Assembly (NCBI RefSeq): GCF_030013595.1
Contig: NZ_CP122768.1
Strand: one strand, 5' to 3'
Source of the DNA: Escherichia coli
Lineage (GTDB): Bacteria; Pseudomonadota; Gammaproteobacteria; Enterobacterales; Enterobacteriaceae
DNA length: 64,000 nt
The notes beneath the pieces were generated by a model that had not been told where the DNA came from, did not search any database, and saw nothing but the letters and a program-made list of their open reading frames with translations. This document shows positions 42,709-52,287 of the stretch, one piece after another (position 1 is the first letter of the stretch; every line of letters starts with the position of its first letter). Both the position numbers and the translations under genes were made by a program.

Positions 42709-44034
42709 ATGAGCAAAGTAACTCCCCAGCCGAAAATCGGCTTTGTTTCCCTTGGCTGTCCGAAAAACCTTGTCGATTCAGAGCGTATTCTCACCGAACT
42801 ACGCACTGAAGGTTATGACGTGGTACCGAGCTATGACGATGCGGACATGGTGATCGTCAACACCTGCGGCTTTATTGACAGCGCGGTACAAGAATCACTG
42901 GAAGCCATTGGTGAAGCGTTGAATGAAAACGGCAAGGTAATTGTGACCGGTTGTCTGGGGGCAAAAGAAGATCAGATCCGCGAAGTCCACCCGAAAGTGC
43001 TGGAAATCACCGGGCCTCATAGCTATGAGCAGGTTCTGGAGCACGTTCATCACTACGTGCCAAAACCGAAACACAACCCATTCCTGAGCCTGGTGCCAGA
43101 ACAAGGCGTGAAACTGACGCCGCGTCATTATGCCTATCTGAAAATTTCTGAAGGCTGTAATCACCGCTGCACCTTCTGCATTATTCCGTCTATGCGCGGC
43201 GACCTGGTGAGCCGTCCGATTGGCGAAGTGTTAAGTGAAGCGAAACGTCTGGTTGATGCGGGCGTTAAAGAGATTCTGGTGATCTCGCAGGATACTTCCG
43301 CCTATGGCGTCGATGTTAAACATCGTACTGGCTTCCACAACGGCGAGCCGGTAAAAACCAGCATGGTCAGCCTGTGCGAACAGTTATCGAAACTGGGGAT
43401 CTGGACACGTCTGCACTACGTTTACCCTTATCCGCATGTGGACGACGTCATCCCACTGATGGCAGAAGGCAAAATCCTGCCGTATCTGGACATTCCGTTG
43501 CAGCACGCCAGCCCGCGCATTCTCAAACTGATGAAGCGTCCGGGTTCTGTAGATCGCCAACTGGCGCGCATCAAACAGTGGCGCGAAATCTGCCCGGAAC
43601 TGACCCTACGCTCAACCTTTATTGTCGGCTTCCCTGGCGAGACAGAAGAAGATTTCCAGATGCTACTCGACTTCCTGAAAGAAGCGCGTCTGGATCGCGT
43701 TGGCTGCTTTAAATACAGCCCGGTTGAAGGTGCAGACGCCAATGCCCTGCCTGACCAGGTTCCGGAAGAAGTGAAAGAAGAACGCTGGAACCGTTTCATG
43801 CAGTTGCAGCAGCAGATTTCCGCCGAGCGCCTGCAAGAGAAAGTGGGCCGTGAAATTCTGGTGATTATCGACGAAGTGGACGAAGAAGGTGCGATTGGTC
43901 GCAGCATGGCAGATGCACCGGAAATCGACGGCGCGGTTTATCTCAATGGTGAAACCAACGTTAAGCCGGGTGATATCCTGCGTGTGAAAGTCGAGCACGC
44001 CGATGAGTACGATTTGTGGGGTAGCCGGGTTTAA
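42709..44034 (+). CDS. rimO: Ribosomal protein S12 methylthiotransferase RimO (radical SAM)
   Basis: 441-aa [31 protein letters not shown]...; CNHRCTFC radical-SAM cluster. Confidence 0.97.
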
Positions 44035-44218
44035 TTAATCTTAAGGCAGATCTAACAAGGATATTGTTCTTCGATCTGCCTCTGCTACCCTTCCCGATGT
44101 CCTACCCTTACGCACAAAATCCCCTGACGCATAAATCGAGAAAAATGAATCGTACTCGAGGCAACTCTCACTTTTTCACACCAAATTAAAGTTTTGATCG
44201 CAATTACTTGAAATAAGC

Positions 44219-44244
44219 GTAATGGTTACTATAGTAAACATTAC
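44219..44244 (+). promoter_or_regulatory. 26-bp near-perfect palindrome (GTAATGGTTACTATAGTAAACATTAC) just upstream of the toxin gene; candidate autoregulatory operator
   Basis: Dyad-symmetric with 2 symmetric mismatches, core TACTATAGTA, ending about 15 nt before ATG 44260 and overlapping the likely -10 and SD region. Confidence 0.5.
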
Positions 44245-44259
44245 CACAAGGATGGATGT

Positions 44260-44646
44260 ATGGGTGTGTATAAGGCAAGACGATTCAGCCAAAGCACGAA
44301 AAAACTTGGTATTCACGATAAAGTTCTCATGGCTGCCGCTGAAGAAGTGATGCAGGGCATATGGGAGGCTGATTTAGGTAGCGGTGTCATCAAAAAACGT
44401 TTACCCCTCCAACAAGGAAAGAGTGGTGGAGCCAGAACAATTATCTTTTTTAAATCAGCAAATCATGTGTTTTTTTATGATGGTTGGTCCAAGAGTGGTC
44501 TAAGCAGTAAAGGAACCAAAGAAATCGAAGATGATGAACTGGCGGCCTACAAAAAAATGGCAAATGCATTTCTGGCCTTTAGCAATAAGCAAATAGAGGA
44601 TTTGATCGAAACTGGCTTTTTGATTGAGGTGAAAAATGAGCGATAA
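44260..44646 (+). CDS. Putative type II toxin, RelE/ParE-superfamily-like (motif LIKKR...GKSGGxRTIIFF...DDEL...LIEV); not present at this locus in K-12
   Basis: 128-aa ORF MGVYKARRFSQSTKKLGIHDKVLMAAAEEVMQGIWEADLGSGVIKKRLPLQQGKSGGARTIIFFKSANHVFFYDGWSKSG...; AAGGATGG SD; overlaps the downstream HTH gene by 11 nt; looks about 40% GC. Confidence 0.75.
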   Translation: MGVYKARRFSQSTKKLGIHDKVLMAAAEEVMQGIWEADLGSGVIKKRLPLQQGKSGGARTIIFFKSANHVFFYDGWSKSGLSSKGTKEIEDDELAAYKKMANAFLAFSNKQIEDLIETGFLIEVKNER

Positions 44647-44965
44647 ATTACAAATGATGCTGGAAGATGCAAAGGAACTGAATGCACTGGGCCTGATGTC
44701 TGATAGTGAAGTTGATGCCATTGCCGTCATGGTCAAAGCTCGTGAAGTCAGCGCCCGTATAGCCAAAGTCAAATCAATGACGGGTGAAGAGATCAAAGCC
44801 ATCCGCACCCGATACGGCATGTCACAATCCGTGCTGGCACATACAATGGGAATGTCAAAAGAAAGTGTCTCGAAATGGGAACGTAATGAAATAAAACCGA
44901 GCGGCCCGGCATTACGTATTTTGAATACATTGGCAATAAAAGGGCCGGAAGTTTTTGCAAAGTAA
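44636..44965 (+). CDS. Putative antitoxin or transcriptional regulator with C-terminal XRE-type HTH (NadS-like architecture)
   Basis: 109-aa ORF MSDKLQMMLEDAKELNALGLMSDSEVDAIAVMVKAREVSARIAKVKSMTGEEIKAIRTRYGMSQSVLAHTMGMSKESVSKWERNEIKPSGPALRILNTLAIKGPEV; GAGGTG SD; translationally coupled to the upstream gene. Confidence 0.75.
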   Translation: MSDKLQMMLEDAKELNALGLMSDSEVDAIAVMVKAREVSARIAKVKSMTGEEIKAIRTRYGMSQSVLAHTMGMSKESVSKWERNEIKPSGPALRILNTLAIKGPEVFAK

Positions 44966-44995
44966 AATGTTTGCAAATGATTTACCACATTCATT

Positions 44996-45019
44996 AGTAC
45001 CCCTTGATTAAGGGGTACT
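44996..45019. terminator. Hairpin (AGTACCCCTT gatt AAGGGGTACT) between the HTH gene and convergent dgcI
   Basis: 10-bp perfect inverted repeat with a 4-nt loop between two convergent stops. Confidence 0.5.
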
Positions 45020-45034
45020 AACACTATTCTAATT

Positions 45035-46363
45035 CTACTGCCAGCTAATCTGCGCCCTGCCGTTTTTCTTACTTTTATACAGTCGCTCATCCGCCAGCAT
45101 TTTCAAGCGTTCGACGGTAGTACATTCATTTGAATGCGCTACACCGATACTGGTGCTTAAATTAATGCTTCCCACCTGGAAATGAACAATTTCTTTTAGA
45201 ATCGATAGCAACTCTTCCAGCGTTCCACCCGTATAAATCACCGCAAATTCGTCACCGCCGAAGCGGTAGACTTTACCTTTATCTACCGGGATCTGTGATT
45301 TAAGGATTTTCACCACTTTCATCAACACTTCATCGCCCAGCAAATGACCGAAGGTGTCGTTAATGTTTTTGAATTTATCGACGTCAAACAGGCACAAATA
45401 TCCGCCTTTTTCCGGCAGGGCTTTTAAATCTTCGTCAAAGGATTTTCTGCCCATCGCTTTGGTCAGGTCATCCAGGAACGCCGAGTTATACAGACTGTAG
45501 AGTTTTTTGACATCGGCAGCTGAAAAGAAAAGCCCGCCATCCAGTACGCGTTCAAAATGGTTATTAATGATGGCTTCTTTCTCCACAATACCACGATTAA
45601 TCACTCTGCGTACCAGATAGAGGCAACTGACACCCGATATCACTGCCACCAATGCGGCAAAGAAAATAATCAATGTACAGACCCGCAAATAAACATCTTT
45701 TTTATACGCAAATACGTACAATCCGGTCGGCAAATAGGCGAAGTGCTCCATCGCTTCCGAAACGGTGAAGATGGCGTTTTTAGCATTAAATTCATCACCG
45801 GTCACCGGTTTACCGTTCTTAAACAGAGAGAACATCAGGTTCTCGCTATCCATCGCCAGCGATTTTGACAGTAAAGAAAAACGCTCCAGACCAAGCAAAA
45901 ATATCAGACTGCGATTGTGAGTTACCGGATAGAGGTAATAGACGAAGGTTTTACCGTCAAAAGAGATAAACCCTGTATTTTTGACATGTCGATACTTCAC
46001 AATCTGCATAATATCTGCACAATAATTTTTCTCGAACTCCTTTACCTGAATACATTCGTCACTGGAAATCAGATAAGGACCGACATCGTGCAAATAAGAG
46101 GGTGAAACCGAGTCGGCGTAAGCTGTGCGTAAGCCAACCAACAGCTGTTCCTCCGTGGGATTTAGCGTGTTGATAAGATCAATTGCCACGCTACGCCGAT
46201 ATTCAGCAATATTTGCCACCGCAAAAGCAGTATCAATAACGGACTGTTTCAGGTCATACACCCGTTCCTTTACCATTTGAGTGTAGTTCCCGCAGGCAAC
46301 TGCTGAAATCATGATAAAAATCAGCAGACTGACTGTAAGTACGAACTTATTGATTCTGGACAT
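45035..46363 (-). CDS. dgcI: Diguanylate cyclase DgcI (YliF), GGDEF domain
   Basis: 442-aa [30 protein letters not shown]...; C-terminal GGDEF region (RFGGDEF). Confidence 0.95.
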
Positions 46364-50748: not shown

Positions 50749-52287
50749 TTATTGCAAATCCGCGTCTTCAAAGCTGAAGCCGGTGTCTGGCATGATCCAA
50801 AAACCGGTCAGGTTTTTACTGTGTGCCGACACCAGTTTTTCTACCACCAGCGGGATCCACGGCGACTCTTGCCAGATGATATCCTGCGCCGCCTTATATA
50901 AACGGGTCTTTTCTGCCGGATCATTAGTTTTCAGTGCCTGAGCCAGGAAGTCATCCACCTGTTTATTGCTGTAAAACGCGGTATTAAACAGCGTCGGTGG
51001 CCAGTTCTGCGAGGCAAACAGCGGCGATAGTGCCCAGTCCGCTTCGCCGGTTGAAGCCGACCAGCCAGTGTAGAACATCCGCACGCCGCTCTCTTTTTGC
51101 CCTTTACCTTCAACTTCTGCCGCCCGCTGTCCGGCATCCATCGCAGTCACCTGGGCTTTAATCCCGATCTGCGCTAACTGCTGCTGGGTAAATTGCAGCA
51201 CTTTCTGCGCGGTGCTGTGGTTATGTGACGACCACAGCGTGGTACTGAAACCGTTGGGATATCCCGCCTCTTTCAGTAATTCGCGCGCTTTCACTGGATC
51301 GTAAGGCCACGGTTTATAACTTTGCGCGTAGGCGATACTCGGCGGTACCACACCAGTAGCTGGCGTTGCATAGCCCGCGAAGGCTACTTTCACCAGCGCC
51401 GGGCGGTTAATGGCGTAATTCAGCGCCTCACGGACCTTCGGGTTATCGAACGGCTTTTGCGTCACGTTCATACTGATATAACGCTGCATAATTGACGGAC
51501 TGGCCATCAACTCGATATTTTTGTTTTTCTCCAGCAGTGCGGCCTGCTCGTAGGGAATGGGGAAAGCAAACTGCGCTTCACCGGTTTGCAGCATTGCCGC
51601 GCGGGTATTGTTATCCGCCACCGGACGCCAGGTTATGCTGTCCAGTTTGGGCAATCCTGGCTGCCAGTAACCCGCGAATTTTTTCACCTTCACAAAATCG
51701 GTCTGATTCCAGGTATCCAGTTCATACGGCCCGGTTCCCACCGGATGAAAACCAATCTCCTTGCCATATTTTTCCAGCGCTGCCGGCGAAATCATCGCGG
51801 TCGCCGGATGGGCAAGAATATTAATAAACGCTGAGAACGGCTGTTTGAGGGTAATCTTTACCGTTGTTGGATCGATCGCTTCCGTTTTGGCAATATTCTT
51901 ATACAGGTTGTAGCGTTTAAGATGATTCGCCGGATCGCTGGCCCGGTCCAGATTCGCTTTTACCGCCGCTGCGTTGAAGTCGGTGCCATCCTGGAATTTA
52001 ATGCCTTCCCGCAATTTCACGGTGTAAGTAAGGCCGTCATCGGAAACGGTATAACTCTCCGCCAGCACGTTTTTCAGTTTCATCTCTTTATCGAGACCGA
52101 ACAGCCCCTGGTAAAACGATTTCGCTACGGCCTGAGATAACGTGTCATTTGCGTCATACGGATCGAGCGTGGTGAAGTTCGATCCTACCGCCACCACCAC
52201 ATCTTTGGCAGCGAATGCACAAGATGCCATCAACGCTGTCGCAATGCCCAGCGCCACTAACCCACTACGGTGTACAGCTCTTGCCAT
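50749..52287 (-). CDS. gsiB: Glutathione-binding periplasmic protein GsiB
   Basis: 512-aa [51 protein letters not shown]... Confidence 0.96.

What the first reader, a model, noticed from the sequence alone, without database searches (positions are those of the whole stretch)
44219..44244. 26-bp near-perfect palindrome immediately upstream of the toxin gene
GTAATGGTTACTATAGTAAACATTAC is dyad-symmetric with only two symmetric mismatches and ends about 15 nt before the toxin ATG, where a promoter -10 and operator would overlap. This is the expected geometry for antitoxin or TA-complex autorepression and supports the view that the two ORFs form an autoregulated operon.
Basis: seen in the sequence. 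Interest (0 to 1): 0.35.

Follow-up and report, generated by a model that had tools for sequence, protein, structure and literature searches.

The report
Toxin-antitoxin operator over its promoter
The 26-bp palindrome is real and is most likely the site where the antitoxin of an uncharacterised E. coli HigBA2-type toxin-antitoxin cassette binds to shut off its own promoter; this is an ordinary arrangement, probably made of two adjacent 11-bp sites.

Summary
GTAATGGTTACTA|TAGTAAACATTAC (44219-44244) pairs at 12 of 13 positions with no gap and ends 15 nt before the toxin ATG. About 0.06 such palindromes are expected per 64 kb.

The best sigma-70-like promoter in the region (TTGAAA, 16 nt, TATAGT) puts its -10 at the dyad centre.

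The two ORFs are a toxin-first cassette. It is a roughly 1-kb indel relative to K-12 and is present in 1138 of 5426 complete E. coli genomes. The toxin (Pfam PF06296) and the HTH antitoxin both find Vibrio cholerae HigB2/HigA2 as their closest solved toxin-antitoxin relatives. The footprinted HigA2 operator likewise starts after -35 and covers -10.

In 20 distinct orthologous cassettes from other Enterobacterales the element is an island of conservation, 1.34 bits per position against about 0.3 in the flanks. Its consensus is GTAAT-N-ATTAC TATA GTAAT-N-ATTAC.

Variable positions co-vary as a 15-bp direct repeat, not as one large palindrome, and some orthologs keep only the left site. I therefore read it as two tandem 11-bp dimer sites. 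That is the geometry of restriction-modification C-boxes.

Binding is inferred, not shown. Interest is low to moderate: a new member of a known kind.

The parts
44040..45035 (+). Roughly 1-kb toxin-antitoxin cassette (an indel relative to E. coli K-12) between the rimO stop and the dgcI stop
   Evidence: The K-12-like strain has only a 46-bp rimO-dgcI spacer. The cassette is present in 1138 of 5426 complete E. coli genomes.
44208..44213 (+). -35-like hexamer TTGAAA
   Evidence: Promoter scan, 10 of 12 matches with a 16-nt spacer. TTG-type hexamers occur upstream of the site in most orthologs.
44219..44244 (.). 26-bp palindrome, the predicted operator (both sub-sites plus the TATA spacer)
   Evidence: 12 of 13 pairs. 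0.06 expected per window. Mean information content is 1.34 bits per position across 21 distinct sites, against about 0.3 in the flanks.
44219..44229 (.). Left 11-bp sub-site GTAATGGTTAC (GTAA-N3-TTAC), in the promoter spacer
   Evidence: Pattern match. It is the most widely retained part, and the only part retained in L022, L029 and L015.
44230..44235 (+). -10-like hexamer TATAGT at the dyad centre
   Evidence: Promoter scan. Positions 12-15 and 17 are invariant or nearly so in orthologs.
44234..44244 (.). Right 11-bp sub-site GTAAACATTAC (GTAA-N3-TTAC), from the end of -10 to the expected transcription start
   Evidence: Pattern match. GTA and TAC are conserved in 21 sites. The position of the transcription start is inferred, not measured.
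44248..44255 (+). Shine-Dalgarno-like AAGGATGG
   Evidence: Read from the sequence. GGAG/GGGG-type motifs occur at the same place in orthologs.
44260..44646 (+). Toxin gene, 128 aa, PF06296 (HigB2-type RelE-superfamily) family
   Evidence: Pfam E 7e-33. The profile hits only VcHigB-2 in the PDB. The AF2 model has pLDDT 85 and its top Foldseek hits are VcHigB2.
44636..44965 (+). Antitoxin gene, 109 aa, with a C-terminal Xre-type HTH (residues about 48-107); overlaps the toxin ORF by 11 nt
   Evidence: HTH_3 E 2e-9. PDB HigA-2 E 6e-4. The AF2 model superposes on the VcHigA2 C-domain at 1.1 A over 61 residues.
44994..45021 (.). Perfect 12-bp stem with a 4-nt loop downstream of the antitoxin; probably the 3'-end hairpin of the operon (and of convergent dgcI)
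   Evidence: -17.2 kcal/mol, z -4.6. No U-tract. Orthologs carry unrelated hairpins at the same place.

Best explanation
The palindrome is the autoregulatory operator of a HigBA2-type toxin-antitoxin cassette.

It consists of two tandem 11-bp palindromic sites: GTAA-N3-TTAC in this window, with family consensus GTAAT-N-ATTAC. Their centres are 15 bp apart and they are separated by TATA. The left site fills the spacer between -35 and -10. The right site runs from the last two bases of the -10 hexamer to the expected transcription start.

Dimers of the antitoxin's C-terminal Xre-type HTH domain, alone or carrying toxin on their N-terminal segments, bind one or both sites. This excludes RNA polymerase, so the operon represses itself.

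Shown here:
- the symmetry, its rarity, and its overlap with a promoter-like site;
- its conservation, and how its variable positions co-vary, across orthologs;
- homology of both proteins to V. cholerae HigB2/HigA2.

Inferred:
- that the antitoxin binds the element;
- the stoichiometry of two dimers;
- repression, and any role of the toxin.
For: 1. The palindrome is real and rare.

2. The only strong promoter-like site upstream of the toxin has its -10 at the dyad centre.

3. The site is a footprint-like island of conservation.
- 21 distinct sites (the window plus 20 orthologous cassettes with 44-74% toxin identity) align without gaps. They come from Kluyvera, Siccibacter, Photorhabdus, Xenorhabdus, Proteus, Morganella, Providencia, Pantoea, Enterobacter, Pectobacterium, Pluralibacter and Phytobacter.
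- Information content is 1.34 bits per position in the site against about 0.3 in both flanks.
- Upstream of -35 the sequences are unrelated, so the element travels with the cassette.

4. GTA (positions 1-3) and TAC (positions 24-26) are nearly invariant although they lie outside the -10 hexamer.

5. The variable positions agree as a 15-bp direct repeat: 58 matches against 45 expected, reached by 0 of 2000 shuffles. They do not agree as a global palindrome: 53 against 48, p 0.13. L022, L029 and L015 keep only the left site.

6. The antitoxin has an HTH domain that superposes on VcHigA2 (1.1 A over 61 residues) and on the MqsA C-domain. The toxin's only PDB relatives by profile, and its best by fold, are VcHigB2.

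7. The VcHigA2 operator is an inverted repeat footprinted from just after -35 across -10 (PMC11006873). A. baumannii HigA2 represses its own promoter, with the toxin as co-repressor (PMC5906591).

8. Specificity changes in step with the protein.
- Relatives whose recognition helix reads STVRKWEIGD instead of ESVSKWERNE carry a different palindrome, CAC-N3-GTG, abutting their -10.
- Within the GTA...TAC group, the six antitoxins whose sites have C or T at position 4 in place of A (L005, L007, L008, L010, L012, L027) all read EKK rather than EIK after the helix; three further antitoxins with K at that position have mixed sites.

9. The 4-3-4 / N4 / 4-3-4 geometry equals that of R-M C-boxes, where two Xre-HTH dimers bind 15 bp apart (PMC2504287). 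MqsA binds AACCT-N3-AGGTT.

10. The 71 bp around the operator are at least 99% identical in 1119 of 1135 E. coli carriers.
Against: - No binding, footprint, transcription-start or reporter data exist for this locus. No paper on it was found.
- Part of the conservation must come from promoter function: the central TACTATAGT as -10, and possibly TAC at the start site.
- The orthologs are related, so the co-variation statistics are inflated by shared ancestry.
- VcHigA2 uses a single 19-bp operator with 7-bp arms and a 5-bp gap. That geometry does not map onto 11-bp sites.
- All four base-contacting residues of VcHigA2 differ here, so the analogy does not fix the half-sites.
- A centre-to-centre distance of 15 bp puts two dimers on nearly opposite faces of the helix. 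This works for C-proteins but is unproven here.
Confidence: 0.78

Rival explanations
1. The whole 26-bp dyad is a single operator. It is read by one antitoxin dimer, or by one toxin-bridged A2-T2 or larger complex, whose two HTH motifs contact only the outer arms GTAAT and ATTAC about two helical turns apart.
For: In this window the global symmetry (12 of 13 pairs) is better than that of either 11-bp sub-site (4 of 5 arm pairs each). PDB 8a0x shows that a HigB2-HigA2 tetramer can sit on operator DNA.
Against: Across orthologs the variable positions do not keep the global symmetry: 53 against 48 expected, p 0.13. Inner TAC (9-11) and GTA (16-18) are as conserved as the outer triplets. Several orthologs have only the left site. 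The known HigA2, MqsA and C-protein dimers span 11-19 bp, not 26.
Confidence: 0.12
2. The symmetry is incidental. The element is just a strong, AT-rich promoter (-10 plus discriminator and start site) with no dedicated repressor site.
For: The most conserved block, TACTATAGT, contains two overlapping -10-like hexamers. TAC at positions 24-26 lies where transcription should start.
Against: GTA at positions 1-3, in the spacer, is nearly invariant without any promoter role. The two halves co-vary as repeats. Distant homologs have a different palindrome at the same place. A 26-bp palindrome is expected 0.06 times per window. Type II toxin-antitoxin operons with an HTH antitoxin are as a rule autoregulated (established knowledge).
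Confidence: 0.06
3. The palindrome acts as a nucleic-acid hairpin or cruciform. For example, it could be an RNA stem in read-through transcripts from rimO that terminates them or masks the toxin ribosome-binding site.
For: It can fold: -6.5 kcal/mol, z -2.4. rimO is transcribed towards it.
Against: The stem is weak and AU-rich and has no U-tract. The terminator scan finds nothing there. Orthologous elements fold no better than shuffles: -3.4 and -3.2 kcal/mol, z -1.0 and +0.3. There is no compensatory pattern for the global stem and no Rfam match. The predicted transcription start lies at the 3' end of the palindrome, so the operon's own mRNA would not contain it.
Confidence: 0.03

Closest known systems
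Vibrio cholerae higBA2 operator / HigA2 (PDB 8a0w, 8a0x; PMC11006873)
   Same: - Toxin-first operon.
- PF06296-type toxin. The profile and fold hits go only to VcHigB2.
- The antitoxin has an N-terminal toxin-binding segment and a C-terminal Xre HTH, 1.1 A rmsd from VcHigA2.
- The operator is an inverted repeat that starts after -35 and covers -10.
   Different: - Only about 15% toxin and 28% HTH-domain identity.
- The Vc operator is one 19-bp site, TGTACGC-N5-GCGTACA. Here there are two 11-bp sites, GTAA-N3-TTAC, 15 bp apart.
- All four base-contacting residues (R68, E71, N72, R77) are replaced.
- The N-terminal segment is predicted helical here, whereas it is disordered in Vc.
Restriction-modification controller (C) protein operators, 'C-boxes' (C.Esp1396I, C.AhdI, C.PvuII; PMC2504287)
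   Same: Identical geometry: 4-3-4 palindrome, 4-bp spacer, 4-3-4 palindrome, 26 bp in all, with centres 15 bp apart. The binders are small Xre-HTH dimers. C.Kpn2I superposes on the antitoxin HTH at 1.3 A over 52 residues. The element overlaps the promoter of the regulator's own operon.
   Different: The sequence is GACT..AGTC, not GTAA..TTAC. C-boxes overlap -35 and the distal dimer activates, whereas here the sites flank -10, so both should repress. No R-M genes are present. The conserved TATA lies inside each C-protein site but between the sites here.
E. coli MqsA and the mqsRA promoter palindromes (AACCT-N3-AGGTT; PMC4894380)
   Same: Toxin-first operon. The antitoxin HTH domain is of the same structural type: TIGR03830 E 2e-12, with 3gn5 and 3fmy among the top fold hits. 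The palindrome is short, with a 3-bp centre.
   Different: There is no zinc-binding N-terminal domain, and the score is below the family cut-off (47 against 61.8). The half-site sequence differs. The toxin is PF06296, not MqsR.
Acinetobacter baumannii pAB120 higBA2 (PMC5906591)
   Same: A HigBA2-named, toxin-first module whose promoter is repressed by the antitoxin, and more strongly by the toxin-antitoxin complex.
   Different: The homology level to the E. coli pair was not tested here. No operator sequence was compared.

Membership tests
HigBA2-type (PF06296 toxin / HigA2-like antitoxin) type II toxin-antitoxin module | The toxin belongs to Pfam PF06296 and has a RelE-superfamily (BECR) fold closest to VcHigB2 | tested here: met
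   PF06296 at 113.8 bits against a cut-off of 27. Profile A1 hits only HigB-2 chains in the PDB, E 1e-4. The AF2 model (pLDDT 85) has VcHigB2 as Foldseek ranks 1-6.
HigBA2-type (PF06296 toxin / HigA2-like antitoxin) type II toxin-antitoxin module | Toxin gene upstream of the antitoxin gene in one operon | tested here: met
   Toxin 44260-44646 and antitoxin 44636-44965 are on the same strand with an 11-nt overlap. The order is the same in all orthologous loci examined.
HigBA2-type (PF06296 toxin / HigA2-like antitoxin) type II toxin-antitoxin module | Antitoxin with a C-terminal Xre-HTH dimerisation and DNA-binding domain like HigA2 | tested here: met
   phmmer HigA-2 E 6e-4 over residues 47-106. 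The fold superposes on 5j9i at 1.1 A over 61 residues, TM 0.82-0.85.
HigBA2-type (PF06296 toxin / HigA2-like antitoxin) type II toxin-antitoxin module | N-terminal intrinsically disordered toxin-neutralising segment | tested here: inconclusive
   A roughly 45-residue N-terminal extension exists. AF2 predicts two helices with pLDDT about 80-92, which does not tell whether it is disordered when free.
HigBA2-type (PF06296 toxin / HigA2-like antitoxin) type II toxin-antitoxin module | The toxin inhibits growth or cleaves mRNA, and the antitoxin neutralises it | not testable with these tools
   Requires expression and toxicity assays.
HigBA2-type (PF06296 toxin / HigA2-like antitoxin) type II toxin-antitoxin module | The antitoxin binds an inverted repeat lying between -35 and across -10 and represses the operon | tested here: inconclusive
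   Position and symmetry are met and conserved. Binding and repression are not testable here.
R-M controller-protein C-box operator | Consensus GACTnnnAGTCnnnnGACTnnnAGTC upstream of a C gene in an R-M system | tested here: not met
   The geometry is identical (4-3-4, N4, 4-3-4), but the arms are GTAA/TTAC and the neighbours are toxin-antitoxin genes, rimO and dgcI.
MqsA family antitoxin and its operator | N-terminal CxxC...CxxC zinc domain; full-length match to TIGR03830; operator ACCT-N3-AGGT | tested here: not met
   TIGR03830 scores 47.1 bits against a cut-off of 61.8 and covers only the C-terminal HTH part. The antitoxin sequence contains no cysteine. The operator arms differ.
Sigma-70 promoter | -35 and -10 hexamers with a 16-18-nt spacer; a mapped transcription start | tested here: inconclusive
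   TTGAAA-16-TATAGT matches 10 of 12, but the region has as many such sites as shuffles do (2 found against 2.8 expected). No transcription-start data are available.

The most novel reading that the evidence does not exclude
The operator may be a C-box-like, two-dimer cooperative switch rather than a simple one-site repressor target. On this reading, HigA2/MqsA-type antitoxins and restriction-modification controller proteins share not only the HTH fold but also the same 26-bp tandem-site architecture (4-3-4 / N4 / 4-3-4, 15-bp period). This would give this toxin-antitoxin family concentration-dependent, ultrasensitive autoregulation that differs from the single-site V. cholerae paradigm.
Probability: 0.3. 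Interest if true: 0.45.

Novelty: new member of a known kind. Interest (0 to 1): 0.27.

Why it matters
The cassette is carried by about a fifth of complete E. coli genomes, including O157:H7, and appears not to have been studied.

Knowing its promoter and operator gives a ready handle for asking when this toxin is expressed: reporter fusions, operator mutants and EMSA probes.

The comparative data also give a family-wide operator consensus (GTAAT-N-ATTAC, twice). They suggest that HigA2-type antitoxins can use a tandem-site layout like that of R-M controller proteins, which bears on how toxin-antitoxin autoregulation is tuned.

Otherwise this is the expected architecture for a type II toxin-antitoxin operon and does not change current understanding.

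Tried and rejected
- **RNA or DNA hairpin function.** The fold is weak (-6.5 kcal/mol), is not conserved in orthologs and shows no covariation for the global stem. Rejected.
- **Known RNA family in 43900-45200.** None at E <= 1.
- **Single-sequence search of the toxin against the PDB.** Nothing at E <= 1. Only the profile and fold search recovered HigB2.
- **NCBIfam for the toxin.** No family.
- **Extra operator copies.** One further GTAA-N3-TTAC lies at 51851-51861 inside a 512-aa ORF. It is a single site and was taken as chance; 3 matches were found against 0.44 expected, two of them being the operator itself.
- **Literature on this locus.** The WP accession, 'rimO+dgcI+toxin-antitoxin' and 'HigB2+O157' searches found nothing specific.
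- **Membership in the MqsA family or the C-box family.** Rejected on defining features.
- **Palindrome as a cassette boundary or recombination site.** Rejected, because the indel ends at about 44040 and 45035, far from the palindrome.

Full report
**Observation**

The window is an E. coli chromosome segment: yliI, bssR, rimO, dgcI, pdeI. At 44219-44244 the sequence is GTAATGGTTACTATAGTAAACATTAC. It is a gapless inverted repeat of two 13-nt arms with 12 of 13 complementary pairs. It ends 15 nt before the ATG (44260) of a 128-aa ORF, and those 15 nt contain AAGGATGG.

Only two palindromes of this quality exist in the 64 kb, against 0.06 expected from Markov simulations.

**Surroundings**

- The 128-aa ORF matches Pfam PF06296 ('RelE', the HigB-2 family) at E 7e-33.
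- The next ORF (109 aa, 44636-44965) overlaps it by 11 nt. It carries an Xre-type HTH (HTH_3, E 2e-9), with sub-threshold matches to the MqsA and NadS families.
- RefSeq annotates the pair as 'type II toxin-antitoxin system RelE/ParE family toxin' plus 'helix-turn-helix domain-containing protein'.
- Compared with a K-12-like genome, in which rimO and dgcI are 46 bp apart, the pair lies on a roughly 1-kb indel at about 44040-45035.
- The indel is present in 1138 of 5426 complete E. coli genomes, including O157:H7.
- The only good sigma-70-like site upstream of the toxin is TTGAAA (44208-13), 16 nt, TATAGT (44230-35), matching 10 of 12. The -10 sits exactly on the dyad centre, and the palindrome spans from five bases after -35 to the expected start site around 44242-44243. 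The start site is inferred.

**Identity of the proteins**

- A single-sequence PDB search with the toxin found nothing.
- A profile of 24 homologues hit only V. cholerae HigB-2 chains, E 1e-4.
- An AlphaFold model (pLDDT 85) has VcHigB2 structures as its six best Foldseek matches. These include 8a0x, the HigB2-HigA2 tetramer on operator DNA.
- The antitoxin hits HigA-2 by sequence at E 6e-4.
- Its modelled C-terminal domain (pLDDT 89) superposes on the HigA2 C-domain at 1.1 A over 61 residues. The MqsA C-domain and the R-M controller C.Kpn2I come next.
- PF06296 toxins are the family called HigB-2 in the literature (PMC11980606).

For VcHigBA2 the operator has been footprinted. [quoted passage not shown] A. 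baumannii HigA2 represses its own promoter, with the toxin as co-repressor (PMC5906591). So the position of the E. coli palindrome is that of the known operator in the closest characterised system.

**Comparative test**

A scan of one genome per species gave 40 loci encoding relatives of the toxin. I analysed 20 distinct cassettes from other Enterobacterales, with toxin identity 44-74%.

- All carry an ungapped counterpart of the 26-bp element at a similar distance upstream of the start codon, about 36-52 nt in most.
- Upstream of the -35 region the sequences are unrelated.
- Information content is 1.34 bits per position within the element, against 0.28-0.36 in the 30 nt on either side.
- The invariant or nearly invariant positions are G1 T2 A3, T9 A10 C11, T12 A13 T14 A15, T17 A18, and T24 A25 C26. 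The consensus is GTAAT-N-ATTAC TATA GTAAT-N-ATTAC.
- GTA at 1-3 lies in the promoter spacer, where no promoter constraint is known. This argues for a protein-binding site.
- Within E. coli the 71 bp around the element are at least 99% identical in 1119 of 1135 carriers. The O157:H7 copy is identical through the promoter and operator.

**One dyad or two sites?**

Each half of the palindrome is itself a small palindrome: GTAA-TGG-TTAC at 44219-29 and GTAA-ACA-TTAC at 44234-44.

- Across the 21 sites the variable positions agree as a direct repeat with a 15-bp period: 58 matches against 45 expected, reached by 0 of 2000 column shuffles.
- They do not agree significantly as a global palindrome: 53 against 48, p 0.13.
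- These numbers are inflated by relatedness and should be read qualitatively.
- Pantoea allii and P. ananatis (L022, L029) and Providencia rustigianii (L015) retain only the left site, and L018 has an altered right site.

I therefore favour two tandem 11-bp sites. The large palindrome then follows automatically, because a palindromic site repeated in tandem is a palindrome. The same 4-3-4 / N4 / 4-3-4, 26-bp layout defines the C-boxes of R-M controller proteins (GACTnnnAGTCnnnnGACTnnnAGTC). There, two Xre-HTH dimers bind 15 bp apart and rotated by 150 degrees (PMC2504287). MqsA likewise reads AACCT-N3-AGGTT (PMC4894380).

**Protein-DNA co-variation**

- All antitoxins of the GTA...TAC group share the recognition-helix core SVSKWER, with I for V in three.
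- The six antitoxins whose sites have C or T in place of A at position 4 (L005, L007, L008, L010, L012, L027) all read EKK rather than EIK just after the helix.
- Three further antitoxins with K at that position (L019, L021, L033) have mixed sites, so the correlation is one-way.
- Beta- and gammaproteobacterial relatives with STVRKWEIGD carry a different palindrome, CAC-N3-GTG, abutting their -10.
- The four base-contacting residues of VcHigA2 are all different in the E. coli protein, which fits its different operator sequence.

**Rivals**

- An RNA or DNA hairpin role is unlikely. The stem is weak (-6.5 kcal/mol), orthologous elements fold no better than shuffles, there is no terminator-like tail and no Rfam match.
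- 'Just a promoter' does not explain the GTA/TAC conservation outside -10, the repeat co-variation or the rarity of the symmetry.
- A single 26-bp site read by one complex is possible but less consistent with the ortholog data.

**Mechanism**

Antitoxin dimers bind the left site in the spacer and the right site from -10 to +1 through helix 3 of the HTH. This occludes RNA polymerase and autorepresses the toxin-first operon.

Translational coupling through the 11-nt ORF overlap would help keep antitoxin in step with toxin.

Toxin bound to the antitoxin N-terminal segment may modulate affinity, as in VcHigBA2 and AbHigBA2.

The sequence features, conservation and homology are shown. Binding, stoichiometry, repression and toxin effects are inferred.

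**Novelty and verdict**

No publication on this E. coli locus was found, but the arrangement is the expected one for a type II toxin-antitoxin operon. It is a new member of a known kind, with a tandem-site variation on the single-site V. cholerae operator. Interest is low to moderate.

Noticed in passing
window 44994-45021: A second near-perfect palindrome, TTAGTACCCCTT-GATT-AAGGGGTACTAA (12-bp stem, -17.2 kcal/mol, z -4.6), lies between the antitoxin stop and the convergent dgcI stop. It has no U-tract on either strand. Orthologous cassettes have unrelated hairpins at the same place, so it is probably a 3'-end or terminator hairpin.
   Followed up: partly
window 44044-44081: An imperfect hairpin (AGGCAGATCTAACAA / TTCTTCGATCTGCCT) lies directly after the rimO stop, at the left edge of the cassette. 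In K-12 a different hairpin (GGCCGGGCAAAATCATTTGTCCGGCC) occupies the 46-bp rimO-dgcI spacer. The cassette thus replaced the shared terminator with two of its own. About 165 bp (44041-44207) upstream of the promoter has no assigned function.
   Followed up: partly
window 44040-45035; L042: The toxin-antitoxin cassette is a presence/absence polymorphism: 1138 of 5426 complete E. coli genomes carry it, always between rimO and dgcI, and one copy is on a plasmid. The dgcI stop codon is TAG with the cassette and TAA without it. Strain BS-01 (H20) has a partly deleted copy, matching only 47% of the query.
   Followed up: partly
L001 (JAIJJM010000872.1); L005 compared with L011: A 1.2-kb contig binned as a Collinsella MAG is identical to the E. 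coli sequence over the operator region compared and encodes an identical toxin. A contig binned as Paenochrobactrum has the same 110 nt upstream of the toxin gene as Morganella psychrotolerans. Both are probably mis-binned contigs.
   Followed up: no
window 51851-51861: A third exact match to GTAA-N3-TTAC (GTAATCTTTAC) lies inside a 512-aa ORF on the minus strand (50749-52287). It is a single site within coding sequence and is most likely chance.
   Followed up: partly
window 44636-44646: The toxin and antitoxin ORFs overlap by 11 nt (ATGAGCGATAA), which suggests translational coupling of the antitoxin to the upstream toxin.
   Followed up: no
L030, L031, L036-L039 (about 20-40 nt upstream of the toxin start): Distant PF06296 cassettes from Betaproteobacteria and other groups carry a different short palindrome, CAC-N3-GTG (for example TATTATGCCACTAGGTGGCATAATA in L039), fused to a -10-like GGCATAAT or GATATAGT. 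This looks like a second operator class for the family.
   Followed up: partly
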